The notes under the pieces are model-generated. The model saw nothing but the letters and a program-made list of their open reading frames with translations, did not search any database and was not told the DNA's origin. DNA of 64,000 nt, taken from assembly GCF_053078305.1 (NCBI RefSeq), contig NZ_CP166879.1; one strand, written 5' to 3'. Every line of letters starts with the position of its first letter. The first letter of the stretch is position 1. The position numbers and the translations under genes were made by a program. Of this stretch, positions 3,865 through 45,816 are shown in pieces.

Positions 3865-5477
<1,613 letters not shown>

Positions 5478-14461: not shown

Positions 14462-14475
14462 TTGATATATATCAA
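14462..14475 (+). promoter_or_regulatory. consensus FNR/CRP-family box upstream of pdeF
   Basis: TTGATATATATCAA is a perfect TTGAT-N4-ATCAA palindrome; TAGAAT -10-like hexamer at 14497..14502. Confidence 0.55.
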
Positions 14476-14602
14476 TTGGAACTTTCATATGACACTTAGA
14501 ATCAATGCTCTCTATAGTGATGAATAATCATCATTCGAAGTCAGGTGGGATGCCTGTCTGAATACACCTCCTTCAGGATGTGGGGGATTCTGCTGAGCAT
14601 CT

Positions 14603-21306: not shown

Positions 21307-22361
<1,055 letters not shown>

Positions 22362-22406
22362 TTACTTGCGGTAGAAAAATAAAATTCGGCGCAATTCTAA
22401 CAGGGA

Positions 22407-22422
22407 AAGCAAACGTTTGCGA
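22407..22422 (-). promoter_or_regulatory. PurR operator (pur box) of purMN
   Basis: Minus strand reads TCGCAAACGTTTGCTT, near-perfect ACGCAAACGTTTTCNT-type palindrome, about 70 bp upstream of the purM start. Confidence 0.75.
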
Positions 22423-22597
22423 GACTGCTTTACACAACCTTTTTGCACGTCTTTTCCCCAGGCGCGCGGCGAAAGAAGATTTGTGCCAGGGCAAAGGTTA
22501 GTTTTCGGATGGAATAATCTTCTTTCATAACCATTTGAATATAAAATAACTTTATCTCAAACCGTTATCATTTTGACTAAAGTCAACGAAAATAATA

Positions 22598-22640
22598 TTG
22601 CCGCCTTGAAGAAAGGAGGTATAATCCGTCGATTTTTTTT
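22598..22640 (+). promoter_or_regulatory. upp promoter and T-tract initially-transcribed region
   Basis: -35 TTGCCG (22598..22603), 16-bp spacer, -10 TATAAT (22620..22625), then CCGTCGATTTTTTTTG with T8 at 22633..22640; ATG at 22668. Confidence 0.7.
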
Positions 22641-22667
22641 GTGGCTGCCCCTCAAAGGAGAAAGAGT

Positions 22668-23294
22668 ATGAAGATCGTGGAAGTCAAACACCCACTCGTC
22701 AAACACAAGCTGGGACTGATGCGTGAGCAAGATATCAGCACCAAGCGCTTTCGCGAACTCGCTTCCGAAGTGGGTAGCCTGCTGACTTACGAAGCGACCG
22801 CCGACCTCGAAACGGAAAAAGTAACTATCGAAGGCTGGAACGGCCCGGTAGAAATCGACCAGATCAAAGGTAAGAAAATTACCGTTGTGCCAATTCTGCG
22901 TGCGGGTCTGGGGATGATGGACGGTGTGCTGGAAAACGTTCCGAGCGCGCGCATCAGCGTTGTCGGTATGTACCGTAATGAAGAAACGCTGGAGCCGGTA
23001 CCGTACTTCCAGAAACTGGTTTCTAACATCGATGAGCGTATGGCGCTGATCGTTGACCCAATGCTGGCAACCGGTGGTTCCGTTATCGCGACCATCGACC
23101 TGCTGAAAAAAGCGGGCTGCAGCAGCATCAAAGTTCTGGTGCTGGTAGCTGCACCAGAAGGTATCGCTGCGCTGGAAAAAGCGCATCCGGACGTCGAACT
23201 GTATACCGCATCGATTGACCAGGGACTGAACGAGCACGGATACATTATTCCGGGCCTCGGCGATGCCGGTGACAAAATCTTTGGTACGAAATAA
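22668..23294 (+). CDS. upp: uracil phosphoribosyltransferase
   Basis: 208 aa from ATG 22668 ([21 protein letters not shown]...). Confidence 0.96.
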
Positions 23295-23379: not shown

Positions 23380-24669
23380 ATGACGCGCCGTGCTATCGGG
23401 GTGAGTGAAAGACCGCCACTTTTACAGACAATCCCGCTTAGTTTGCAACATTTGTTCGCCATGTTTGGTGCAACCGTCCTGGTGCCCGTCTTATTTCATA
23501 TTAACCCGGCGACTGTACTGTTATTTAACGGTATTGGAACGCTGCTGTATCTCTTCATCTGTAAAGGGAAAATTCCGGCTTATCTTGGTTCCAGCTTTGC
23601 CTTTATTTCACCGGTATTGCTGCTGTTGCCGTTGGGGTATGAAGTCGCGCTGGGCGGCTTTATTATGTGCGGCGTGCTGTTTTGCCTGGTTTCTTTTATC
23701 GTGAAGAAAGCGGGGACCGGCTGGCTGGACGTGCTGTTTCCACCTGCGGCAATGGGCGCAATCGTTGCCGTCATCGGTCTGGAGCTGGCGGGCGTAGCTG
23801 CCGGTATGGCGGGTTTACTCCCGGCTGAAGGGCAAACGCCAGACTCCAAAACCATCATCATCTCTATTACCACCCTGGCGGTCACGGTTTTAGGTTCCGT
23901 GCTGTTCCGTGGTTTCCTGGCAATTATCCCGATTTTAATTGGCGTGCTGGTGGGGTACGCGCTCTCTTTCGCAATGGGAATTGTCGATACCACGCCGATT
24001 ATTAATGCTCACTGGTTTGCGCTGCCAACCCTCTATACGCCGCGCTTCGAGTGGTTTGCCATTCTGACTATTCTGCCAGCGGCGTTAGTGGTTATTGCCG
24101 AACACGTAGGGCACCTGGTAGTAACGGCTAATATCGTCAAAAAAGATCTGCTGCGCGATCCAGGTCTGCACCGTTCGATGTTTGCTAACGGCTTGTCGAC
24201 CGTGATTTCCGGCTTCTTTGGCTCCACGCCAAACACCACCTACGGGGAAAACATTGGCGTGATGGCGATCACCCGTGTTTACAGTACCTGGGTTATCGGC
24301 GGGGCGGCGATTTTCGCTATCCTGCTTTCCTGCGTCGGTAAACTGGCTGCCGCTATCCAGATGATCCCATTGCCGGTGATGGGCGGCGTTTCGCTGCTGC
24401 TTTATGGTGTCATCGGTGCTTCCGGTATTCGTGTTTTGATCGAATCGAAAGTGGATTACAACAAAGCACAGAACCTGATCCTGACTTCCGTGATTTTGAT
24501 CATCGGCGTCAGTGGCGCGAAGGTAAACATCGGCGCGGCGGAGTTGAAAGGTATGGCGCTGGCGACCATCGTCGGTATCGGCTTAAGTTTGATTTTCAAA
24601 CTGATCAGTGTGCTGCGCCCTGAAGAAGTGGTGCTGGACGCAGAAGACGCGGATATAACAGACAAATAA
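23380..24669 (+). CDS. uraA: uracil:H+ symporter
   Basis: 429 aa from ATG 23380 ([24 protein letters not shown]...), polytopic NCS2-family sequence. Confidence 0.95.
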
Positions 24670-37337: not shown

Positions 37338-38777
37338 TTACTGCAACCAGGTCGCGGCGATTACGCTGGAAATCAGCGACATCACAATCAGTACAATCAG
37401 CACCAGGCGCATTGACCCTGGCAGCGGTGCGGCATCGGCGACGGCCTCGCTCGGTTTGCCGGGGACGACGCGACCAAACCAGCGAATAAACCAGGCGAAA
37501 CTGGCGACCGATTCAATCATCAGCAGAATCATGGCGGGCAGCAGGATCCAGTACTCCACTGACAACGCAAAACCGGCAGCAAACAGCGGGAATTTACTGA
37601 AGAAGCCGTTGAACGGCGGTACGCCGGTAATCGCCAGCGCTGCCACGCAGAAACCCACGCCTGGCAACGGCAGGGTGTGCAATACGCCACGCAGACGCGG
37701 CAACAAGCGCGTGCCGCAGCTGTAACTCAGCGCACCTGCTACAAGGAAAAACAGGCTTTTAGCGAACGCGTGGTTGACGATGTAGGCGATGCTGCCCTCC
37801 AGCGCCAGCCGCGAGCCGAAGATGGAGAGCGACAAGCCGAAGAACATCCAGCCAAGTTGAGTGATGGTCGACCAGGCCAGCAACCGCTTCATATCCTGCT
37901 GTGGCAAATACATCAGAAATCCATAAAGAATGGTGACCAGCGCCATGACCATGCCAACGCCGCCAATCACATGCGGGATATTGCCGCCGTCGATAATGGC
38001 GCGGGCAAAAATGTAAACGCCCACTTTCACCATCGATGCGGCGTGGAGATAGGCGCTGATCGGTGTTGGCGCTTCCATTGCGTCCGGTAGCCACGCTTGC
38101 ATCGGTAGCTGGGCCGATTTCCCCCACGCGGCAAACAGGATGCCGCCATAAACCAGATAACGTGCGTCGCCGTGTAACTCGCTCATCGCGCTAAGCGCAA
38201 ACGTTCCGGTCTGCAAAAACAGCGTGGCGGCGGCAAGATACAACCCCAACGAACCGATATGGGTGATAAGCAACGCTTTTAGTGCTGAACGCTGCGCTTT
38301 ATCGCTCTGGTAATAACTGATCAACGCCCAGGAGCAGCCGCCCGTAATTTCAAAAAACAACAACTGACCGAGCAGCGTCGAGGAGAGTACCAGTCCCGCC
38401 ATCGCGCCGATAAACAACAGCAAAAATGCGTAATAACGATTCGTGCCGTTATGCGGGTGTTCGCGATTTTTATCCGTCAGATAACCCGTGGAGTAGATCG
38501 TGACCAGCAAACCGAGAAACACCACCACAAACAGAATCAGCGTACTCACGCGATCAATGAGCAGGCCAAACAACGCCACATCCCCCACGTTGACCAACGT
38601 CAACGTGACGGCAACTTTATCGGCCTGATAAAACGCGGAGATCAGTGACAACATGCACAGCGTGGTCAGCGCGGCGAACAAAACCCCCCATTCGGCGGCC
38701 CGACGTTGTGGCGAAAACGAAACGACCAGTGCGCCGATAAAAGGCAGCAATAACGTCGTCAGAGCAAGATTTTCCAT
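37338..38777 (-). CDS. hyfD: hydrogenase-4 membrane subunit (NuoM/N antiporter-like)
   Basis: 479 aa polytopic. Confidence 0.92.
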   Translation of the reverse strand: MENLALTTLLLPFIGALVVSFSPQRRAAEWGVLFAALTTLCMLSLISAFYQADKVAVTLTLVNVGDVALFGLLIDRVSTLILFVVVFLGLLVTIYSTGYLTDKNREHPHNGTNRYYAFLLLFIGAMAGLVLSSTLLGQLLFFEITGGCSWALISYYQSDKAQRSALKALLITHIGSLGLYLAAATLFLQTGTFALSAMSELHGDARYLVYGGILFAAWGKSAQLPMQAWLPDAMEAPTPISAYLHAASMVKVGVYIFARAIIDGGNIPHVIGGVGMVMALVTILYGFLMYLPQQDMKRLLAWSTITQLGWMFFGLSLSIFGSRLALEGSIAYIVNHAFAKSLFFLVAGALSYSCGTRLLPRLRGVLHTLPLPGVGFCVAALAITGVPPFNGFFSKFPLFAAGFALSVEYWILLPAMILLMIESVASFAWFIRWFGRVVPGKPSEAVADAAPLPGSMRLVLIVLIVMSLISSVIAATWLQ

Positions 38778-45800: not shown

Positions 45801-45816
45801 ACGCAAACGTGTGCGT
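45801..45816 (+). promoter_or_regulatory. PurR operator (pur box) upstream of purC
   Basis: ACGCAAACGTGTGCGT, 14/16 palindromic match to the pur-box consensus. Confidence 0.7.

What the first reader, a model, noticed from the sequence alone, without database searches (positions are those of the whole stretch)
22598..22667. upp promoter with T-tract initially transcribed region
TATAAT (22620..22625) is followed by CCGTCGATTTTTTTTG. This arrangement matches the classic upp/pyrBI-type UTP-sensing mechanism (start-site switching and reiterative transcription at the T-run). Upstream lies a palindrome TTGACTAAAGTCAA (22572..22585) of unknown function.
Basis: partly seen in the sequence, partly recalled or inferred. 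Interest (0 to 1): 0.35.

Follow-up and report, generated by a model that had tools for sequence, protein, structure and literature searches.

The report
Known E. coli upp promoter
This is the well-studied Escherichia coli upp-uraA promoter, whose run of eight T's senses UTP through RNA polymerase stuttering, and the upstream palindrome is a published binding site for the oxygen-sensing regulator FNR, so the finding is correct but already known.

Summary
The window is an E. coli chromosome and 22598-22667 is the promoter and leader of upp-uraA (uracil phosphoribosyltransferase and uracil permease). It is identical to the published upp-uraA initially transcribed region 5'-GATTTTTTTTG, the textbook case of UTP-sensitive start-site switching coupled to UTP-dependent reiterative transcription (Tu & Turnbough 1997; Cheng et al. 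2001). It is a published FNR site: Grainger et al. 2007 list this sequence as an FNR ChIP-chip target centred at -51.5 from the upp start, and Myers et al. 2013 report an FNR ChIP-seq peak there. My additions are small. TATAAT-N5-GA-T7-9 is conserved in about 90% of 119 sampled species. A TTGAT-N4-ATCAA box sits at a fixed offset in about three quarters of them and is absent in Erwiniaceae. E. coli genomes are polymorphic for T8 (91%), T7 (8%) and T9 (0.4%). The one open point is how FNR acts from the atypical -51.5 position. Verdict: real, correctly read, already known, low interest.

The parts
22573..22586 (.). FNR-type box TTGACTAAAGTCAA, matching 8 of 10 specified positions of TTGAT-N4-ATCAA. 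Its centre at 22579.5 is -51.5 from G6.
   Evidence: Exact position. The Grainger 2007 ChIP-chip motif TTTCGTTGACTTTAGTCAAAATGA is the reverse complement of window 22568-22591, with site centre -51.5 from the upp start. Myers 2013 report a ChIP-seq peak upstream of upp. A box scoring at least 7/10 sits at offset -47/-48 from TATAAT in 79 of 106 species, with conserved arms and a variable centre.
22598..22603 (+). -35-like hexamer TTGCCG (4 of 6 positions), 16-nt spacer
   Evidence: Promoter scan. In other genera this position reads T(A/G)TGGCG, a poor -35.
22604..22619 (+). Spacer with an A-rich tract and GG immediately before the -10. It is conserved across genera as AAAAGCGG.
   Evidence: One-per-genus footprint. 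Its function is inferred only.
22620..22625 (+). -10 hexamer TATAAT
   Evidence: Invariant in all 107 species matched by the core pattern.
22626..22630 (+). GC-rich discriminator CCGTC (positions 1-5 downstream of the -10)
   Evidence: The variants CCGGC, CCCGC, CTCGC and CCGTC account for 101 of 107 species.
22631..22632 (+). Alternative start sites G6 (22631) and A7 (22632)
   Evidence: The published initially transcribed region is GATTTTTTTTG. Grainger's -51.5 places the annotated start at 22631. GA is conserved in 103 of 107 species. The G6/A7 naming comes from my knowledge of Tu & Turnbough 1997, which is not held in the library.
22633..22640 (+). T8 tract, where the nascent AUUU... transcript slips and U is added repeatedly
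   Evidence: T7-T9 across 107 species. Within E. coli: T8 in 4941 genomes, T7 in 440, T9 in 21.
22641..22667 (+). Rest of the 5' leader, with Shine-Dalgarno AAGGAG at 22655-22660. No attenuator.
   Evidence: No terminator-like site, no Rfam match, fold z-score +0.62.
22668..23294 (+). upp coding sequence (uracil phosphoribosyltransferase)
   Evidence: ORF list; RefSeq annotation of a record 100% identical over the queried 341 bases (window 22360-22700).
23380..24669 (+). uraA coding sequence (uracil permease), second gene of the operon
   Evidence: Annotation (locus 4021-5310, offset +19359); ORF list.

Best explanation
Window 22573-22667 is the regulatory region of the E. coli upp-uraA pyrimidine-salvage operon. 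A sigma-70 promoter (TTGCCG, 16 nt, TATAAT) is followed by the initially transcribed sequence G6-A7-T8-G. RNA polymerase can start at G6 or A7. At high UTP it mainly starts at A7, and the short AUUU... transcript slips backwards on the run of template A's. U residues are added repeatedly, the poly-U transcripts are released, and no upp mRNA is made. At low UTP it starts more often at G6. Those transcripts do not slip and are extended into upp-uraA, so salvage capacity rises when pyrimidines are scarce. This level of control needs no repressor and no attenuator. Upstream, the palindrome TTGACTAAAGTCAA is an FNR site centred at -51.5. FNR occupies it in vivo under anaerobiosis and is reported to activate upp in the presence of nitrite. 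Status of each step: the sequence identity, anatomy, lack of an attenuator and cross-species conservation are shown here. The UTP-dependent switching and stuttering are established in the literature but not re-tested here. How FNR acts from -51.5 is unknown.
For: Identity: the locus is present in 5424 of 5426 complete E. coli genomes and is annotated upstream of upp. The motif is unique in the window. The published upp-uraA initially transcribed region 5'-GATTTTTTTTG is identical (PMC7039003), and a K-12 primer equals window 22618-22667. Mechanism from the literature: start-site switching stimulated by excess UTP at codBA and upp leads to non-productive reiterative initiation (PMC12709180); see also the titles of Tu & Turnbough 1997 and Cheng et al. 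2001 and PMC6245113. No attenuator. Conservation: TATAAT-N5-NN-T(7-9) in 107 of 119 full-length upstream regions, with GA at positions 6-7 in 103. FNR: ChIP-chip motif and -51.5, ChIP-seq peak and 'Activated by FNR in NO2-', upp-uraA tagged 'FA, FAec', which I read as FNR-activated, and upp and uraA up-regulated anaerobically in Yersinia intermedia. The box scores at least 8/10 at offset -47/-48 in 76 of 106 species, against 0.15% of control positions.
Against: None against the identity. The two original experimental papers are not held in the library, so the G6/A7 details rest on secondary sources and my own knowledge. For FNR, Myers 2013 saw no FNR-dependent change in upp expression in glucose minimal medium (Category 3). 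The -51.5 position is outside the -41.5 +/- 4 window found for 19 of 23 FNR-activated promoters. The E. coli box deviates from consensus at the fifth position of both half-sites.
Confidence: 0.95

Rival explanations
1. pyrBI-type control: the T-run belongs to a leader that works by UTP-sensitive pausing and an intrinsic terminator (attenuation), rather than, or in addition to, control at initiation.
For: In Pectobacterium and Brenneria the upp leader carries extra GC-rich hairpins followed by T-runs.
Against: The E. coli leader is only 37 nt from G6 to the ATG. It has no terminator-like site, no Rfam match, and folds no better than shuffled sequence (z = +0.62). There is no room for a leader peptide.
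Confidence: 0.02
2. The palindrome is not an FNR site. It could be an UP-element-like A/T-rich stretch, a site for another regulator (RutR, the uracil-sensing TetR-family protein, or YeiL, the third CRP/FNR paralogue), or part of a divergent promoter.
For: The position (-59 to -46 from A7) overlaps the usual UP-element zone. The RutR box TTGACCA-NN-TGGTCAA (my knowledge) shares the TTGAC/GTCAA arms. -51.5 is atypical for FNR activation. No FNR effect was seen in glucose minimal medium.
Against: FNR occupies this site in two independent in vivo studies. In other genera the box is a perfect TTGAT-N4-ATCAA with GC-rich centres such as TTGATCCCGATCAA, so it is not an A/T-rich UP element. RutR arms are separated by 6 nt, not 4. 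No usable -10 follows either TTGACT arm at 16-18 nt on either strand (by inspection).
Confidence: 0.07
3. The T-run is an incidental A/T-rich leader feature with no regulatory role.
For: Homopolymer runs are common near promoters. The run length varies: T7-T9 between species and within E. coli.
Against: The arrangement -10, 5 nt, GA, then at least 7 T's is kept in 103 of 119 species across several families of Enterobacterales, while flanking leader sequence diverges. The published title states that a long T.A tract is required for regulation (Cheng et al. 2001).
Confidence: 0.01

Closest known systems
E. coli K-12 upp-uraA promoter (Tu & Turnbough 1997; Cheng, Dylla & Turnbough 2001)
   Same: It is the same locus. 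The -10, discriminator, GATTTTTTTTG and leader are identical to the K-12 sequence over window 22618-22667, and the downstream genes are the same.
   Different: Nothing in the core. This strain differs from many E. coli by a few SNPs elsewhere in the intergenic region: over window 22360-22700, 1188 genomes are at least 99% identical and 4223 fall in the 95-99% band.
E. coli codBA promoter (ATTTTTTG; Qi & Turnbough 1995)
   Same: The same logic applies: UTP-sensitive start-site switching coupled to non-productive UTP-dependent reiterative transcription in a pyrimidine-salvage operon.
   Different: A different gene pair, a T6 rather than T8 tract, and different alternative start bases. It is not homologous sequence.
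E. coli pyrBI promoter (AATTTG; Liu, Heath & Turnbough 1994)
   Same: UTP-dependent stuttering at a T-run in the initially transcribed region gives released poly-U transcripts.
   Different: In pyrBI, stuttering is triggered directly by UTP without start-site switching, the T-run has only three bases, and the operon also has a leader attenuator. The upp leader has none.
Canonical class II FNR-activated promoters (site at -41.5), for example the box upstream of pdeF/yfgF in this same window
   Same: A TTGAT-N4-ATCAA-type inverted repeat upstream of a sigma-70 -10, with in vivo FNR occupancy.
   Different: At upp the box centre is 40.5 nt upstream of the first base of the -10 (-51.5 from the start). 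At pdeF the perfect box at 14462-14475 is 28.5 nt upstream of TAGAAT, which is class II spacing. 19 of 23 FNR-activated promoters have the site at -41.5 +/- 4. The FNR effect on upp was seen only with nitrite.

Membership tests
UTP-sensitive start-site switching plus reiterative transcription (upp/codBA type) | Sigma-70 promoter whose start-site window offers two alternative starts, the second of which begins a homopolymeric T-run | tested here: met
   TATAAT-CCGTC-G-A-T8-G at 22620-22641.
UTP-sensitive start-site switching plus reiterative transcription (upp/codBA type) | Sequence identity with the experimentally characterised upp initially transcribed region | tested here: met
   5'-GATTTTTTTTG quoted for upp-uraA in PMC7039003. 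The K-12 primer is identical to window 22618-22667.
UTP-sensitive start-site switching plus reiterative transcription (upp/codBA type) | Controls a pyrimidine salvage or biosynthesis operon | tested here: met
   upp and uraA are annotated directly downstream.
UTP-sensitive start-site switching plus reiterative transcription (upp/codBA type) | UTP-dependent shift of 5' ends and poly-U ladders from the A start | not testable with these tools
   Reported in Tu & Turnbough 1997 (title; summarised in PMC12709180). The original paper is not held.
UTP-sensitive start-site switching plus reiterative transcription (upp/codBA type) | A long T tract is needed for regulation | tested here: inconclusive
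   No species among 107 has fewer than 7 T's, and E. coli genomes carry T7, T8 or T9. This is consistent with the title of Cheng et al. 2001, but conservation is not a functional test.
pyrBI-type leader attenuation | Intrinsic terminator or leader peptide between the start site and the structural gene | tested here: not met
   No terminator-like site. The 70-nt leader plus start region folds at z = +0.62. No Rfam family matches.
FNR-binding site | Match to TTGAT-N4-ATCAA | tested here: met
   TTGACTAAAGTCAA matches 8 of 10 specified positions. The consensus is quoted in PMC3688515.
FNR-binding site | In vivo occupancy by FNR | not testable with these tools
   Published ChIP-chip target with this exact motif (PMC1802558) and ChIP-seq peak (PMC3688515).
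FNR-binding site | Position typical of FNR activation: about -41.5 (class II), or -61.5 and further upstream (class I) | tested here: not met
   The centre at 22579.5 is -51.5 from G6 and -52.5 from A7, compared with -41.5 +/- 4 for 19 of 23 activated promoters.
FNR-binding site | FNR-dependent expression of the downstream operon | not testable with these tools
   The literature is mixed. Myers 2013, citing Constantinidou et al., lists upp as activated by FNR in nitrite, but saw no change in glucose minimal medium. upp-uraA is tagged 'FA, FAec', which I read as FNR-activated.
FNR-binding site | Conservation of the half-sites, but not the spacer, in orthologous promoters | tested here: met
   A box scoring at least 7/10 sits at offset -47/-48 in 79 of 106 species. 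Most arm columns carry 1.1-2.0 bits (the outermost 3' base 0.7) and the three central spacer columns 0.1-0.2 bits. The background rate of scores of 8/10 or more is 0.15%.

The most novel reading that the evidence does not exclude
The FNR box is held at an atypical -51.5 position, with a fixed offset, across most families of Enterobacterales and upstream of a promoter with a poor -35. This may mean that FNR does something other than standard class I or class II activation here. For example, it could bias RNA polymerase positioning, and so the G6/A7 start choice, which would tie oxygen or nitrite status to the UTP-sensing switch. It could also act only together with a co-regulator. Its loss in Erwiniaceae would then mark a lineage-specific rewiring of pyrimidine salvage.
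Probability: 0.1. Interest if true: 0.45.

Novelty: already known. Interest (0 to 1): 0.08.

Why it matters
The finding is a correct rediscovery of a textbook regulatory element, so it has little value as a discovery. It does show that sequence reading alone can recognise a "repression without repressors" promoter. The small new points are comparative. The -10/GA/T-run module is nearly invariant across Enterobacterales. Natural T7, T8 and T9 alleles coexist in E. coli. The FNR box is kept at an unusual -51.5 position across the order, which makes the unexplained FNR effect on upp a defined and testable question.

Tried and rejected
1. Reading the original papers (PMC179593, PMC94869) and the Turnbough reviews (PMC2415746, PMC3078970): none is held, so I relied on secondary open-access sources.

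2. Counting T-run alleles with 40-42-nt exact queries: these gave 'No match'. BLAST's low-complexity filter masks the T-run and leaves no 28-nt seed. I redesigned the query with a 40-nt right flank, and that worked.

3. RutR as the protein binding the palindrome: rejected because RutR half-sites are 6 nt apart, not 4 (my knowledge of the consensus), and FNR ChIP data exist.

4. UP element: rejected because orthologous boxes have GC-rich centres.

5. A second, class II FNR-dependent promoter starting near 22621: the required -10 would be AAGAAA (22609-22614), which lacks the key T's, so this is unlikely.

6. A class I start at 22641: the -10 would be TCGATT, also poor.

7. A literal search for the palindrome in the paper library gave 0 hits, because Grainger et al. 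print the other strand.

8. A search for literature on activation from -51.5 returned only numeric noise.

9. Rfam and folding of the leader found nothing.

Full report
**Observation.** The stated sequence is present and unique. TATAATCCGTCGATTTTTTTTG lies at 22620-22641 on the + strand, with 0 matches expected by chance. The only sigma-70-like match in 22300-22750 is TTGCCG (22598-22603), a 16-nt spacer, then TATAAT (22620-22625), matching 10 of 12 positions. After the -10 come CCGTC (22626-22630), G (22631), A (22632), eight T's (22633-22640) and G (22641). A Shine-Dalgarno AAGGAG lies at 22655-22660 and the ATG at 22668.

**Where we are.** Window 22360-22700 matches 5424 of 5426 complete E. 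coli genomes, always on the chromosome. In a record that is 100% identical over that stretch, the neighbours are ppk1, purN and purM on one strand and upp, uraA and hda on the other. The finding is therefore the upp side of the 324-bp purM/upp intergenic region. The upp coding sequence is 22668-23294 and uraA is 23380-24669.

**The T-tract.** The published initially transcribed region of upp-uraA is 5'-GATTTTTTTTG. It is listed alongside pyrBI (AATTTG) and codBA (ATTTTTTG) as E. coli promoters that stutter (PMC7039003). A K-12 BW25113 knockout primer reproduces window 22618-22667 exactly (PMC11200800; mapped). PMC12709180 states that reiterative initiation is triggered directly by high UTP at pyrBI. 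At codBA and upp it is triggered indirectly, through start-site switching stimulated by excess UTP, and the slipped transcripts are released without producing mRNA. The primary sources are Tu & Turnbough 1997 and Cheng, Dylla & Turnbough 2001 (titles). Neither is held in the library, so the G6/A7 naming rests on my own knowledge of the 1997 paper. There is an independent cross-check. Grainger et al. place their FNR site at -51.5 from the upp start. With the site centre at 22579.5, that puts the annotated start at 22631, which is G6.

**Rival: attenuation.** The leader from G6 to the ATG is 37 nt. It has no terminator-like site and no Rfam match at E-values up to 1. It folds no better than shuffled sequence (-11.8 kcal/mol, z = +0.62). 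Control is therefore at initiation, as published.

**Conservation (my analysis).** I scanned one genome per species with a degenerate pattern for the upp N-terminus. This gave 120 loci, mostly Enterobacterales plus a few Pasteurellaceae.

- **Core module:** of 119 full-length upstream regions, 107 carry TATAAT-N5-NN-T(7-9). TATAAT is invariant in those 107, and positions 6-7 are GA in 103.
- **T-run length:** T7 in 46 species, T8 in 47 and T9 in 14.
- **Discriminator:** always GC-rich; CCGGC, CCCGC, CTCGC and CCGTC cover 101 of 107.
- **Footprint:** a one-per-genus alignment shows a continuous conserved block AAAAGCGG-TATAAT-CCNGC-GA-T7+.
- **Exceptions:** E. albertii has T in place of G6. Photorhabdus has GG followed by T7. 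Pectobacterium keeps the module but has about 70 nt of GC-rich hairpins and T-runs inserted in the leader, and Brenneria carries similar inserts. Pasteurellaceae have an interrupted CGATTTTATTTTT.
- **Within E. coli:** exact-match queries give T8 in 4941 genomes, T7 in 440 (including the type strain ATCC 11775) and T9 in 21, out of 5424. Some T9 calls may be homopolymer sequencing errors.

**The palindrome.** Examples are TTGATCCATATCAA, TTGATCCCGATCAA, TTGATTAAAATCAA and TTGATCTGGATCAG.

- **Position:** a match of at least 7/10 to TTGAT-N4-ATCAA sits at offset -47 or -48 from the -10 in 79 of 106 species, and 76 of them score at least 8/10.
- **Information content:** most arm columns carry 1.1-2.0 bits (the outermost 3' base 0.7), while the three central spacer columns carry 0.1-0.2 bits.
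- **Background:** at control positions in the same sequences, scores of 8/10 or more occur at 0.15%.
- **Identity of the motif:** TTGATnnnnATCAA is the FNR consensus (PMC3688515).

The literature already has this site. Grainger et al. 2007, Table 2, list "upp/purM" as an FNR ChIP-chip target also seen in transcriptome data. The motif given is 5'-TTTCGTTGACTTTAGTCAAAATGA-3', centred at -51.5 from upp and -192.5 from purM. That motif is the reverse complement of window 22568-22591. Myers et al. 2013 report an FNR ChIP-seq peak upstream of upp. They place it in Category 3: no FNR-dependent change in glucose minimal medium, but "Activated by FNR in NO2-" according to Constantinidou et al.. The HU-regulon paper tags upp-uraA "FA, FAec", which I read as FNR-activated. 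Yersinia intermedia up-regulates uraA and upp anaerobically. So the palindrome's function is not unknown.

**What remains open.** The position is unusual. 19 of 23 FNR-activated promoters with a known start have the site at -41.5 +/- 4, and one has it at -60.5. The window offers an internal contrast. A perfect box, TTGATATATATCAA (14462-14475), lies 28.5 nt upstream of a TAGAAT -10 in front of pdeF, which is class II spacing. At upp the box centre is 40.5 nt upstream of the -10. I looked for an alternative promoter that would give class II or class I spacing and found only poor -10 candidates (AAGAAA, TCGATT). How FNR acts at upp is therefore unresolved. The fixed spacing across the order argues that it does act. 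The box is missing at the canonical offset in Pantoea, Erwinia, Mixta and Izhakiella, and is shifted in Mangrovibacter.

**Other rivals for the palindrome.** An UP element is unlikely because the orthologous centres are GC-rich. RutR has the wrong half-site spacing. YeiL, or a divergent promoter, is not excluded outright, but both are disfavoured by the two FNR ChIP datasets.

**Verdict.** Both the T-tract mechanism and the palindrome are already described for this exact locus. Novelty: already known. Interest is low. The only mildly new material is the comparative footprint, the T7/T8/T9 polymorphism, and the deeply conserved but non-canonical FNR spacing.

Noticed in passing
window 22407-22422: AAGCAAACGTTTGCGA is the PurR operator of the divergent purMN promoter. 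It is the reverse complement of TCGCAAACGTTTGCTT, listed for purM-purN in the PurR ChIP-chip study (PMC3159470). It belongs to purMN, not upp, although that paper reports that uraA expression falls with adenine and changes in a purR mutant.
   Followed up: yes
window 14462-14475 (with TAGAAT at 14497-14502): A perfect FNR consensus, TTGATATATATCAA, lies 28.5 nt upstream of a TAGAAT -10 and about 130 nt upstream of the pdeF (yfgF) ATG. This is a canonical class II FNR promoter layout and contrasts with the -51.5 site at upp.
   Followed up: partly
window 38590-38603: A third FNR-like box, TTGACCAACGTCAA, lies inside the hyfD coding sequence (hydrogenase 4). Its function, if any, is unknown.
   Followed up: partly
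window 45801-45816: ACGCAAACGTGTGCGT differs by one base from the PurR consensus used. It matches the published purC operator (ACGCACACGTTTGCGT on the other strand) at the expected distance of about 23.4 kb from the purMN operator.
   Followed up: partly
window 22633-22640, compared across 5424 E. coli genomes: The T-run is polymorphic within E. coli: T8 in 4941 genomes, T7 in 440 (including the type strain ATCC 11775) and T9 in 21. Some T9 calls may be homopolymer sequencing errors. Whether the alleles differ in their range of regulation is untested.
   Followed up: partly
L004 (Escherichia albertii NBRC 107761), upstream of upp: The productive start base G6 is replaced by T (TATAATCCGTCTATTTTTTTTG), while the FNR box and T8 are intact. 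If only the A start remains, the start-site switch should behave differently in this species.
   Followed up: no
L017, L032, L080 (Pectobacterium) and L020 (Brenneria), upp leader: In the three Pectobacterium loci the canonical promoter and T-run are retained, but about 70 nt of GC-rich hairpins ending in T-runs (for example AAAACGCGTTTAGCGTTTTTTG) are inserted between the T-run and the Shine-Dalgarno. Brenneria carries two similar units, but its promoter lies beyond the 170 nt I examined. These look like terminators and could add an attenuation layer in these genera.
   Followed up: no
L015, L016, L019, L024, L034, L036, L046, L051, L053, L059, L079, L086, L087, L089, L092, L100, L101, L104 (Pantoea, Erwinia, Mixta, Izhakiella): These Erwiniaceae keep the TATAAT/GA/T-run module but lack the FNR-type box at the canonical offset. 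In Mangrovibacter (L023, L094) the box is shifted about 15 nt further upstream.
   Followed up: partly
L070, L074, L078, L093 (Pasteurellaceae), upstream of upp: The -10-like TAAAAT or TAGAAT is followed by CGATTTTAT(T)n, a T-tract interrupted by A or G. This may be a diverged form of the same initially transcribed region.
   Followed up: no
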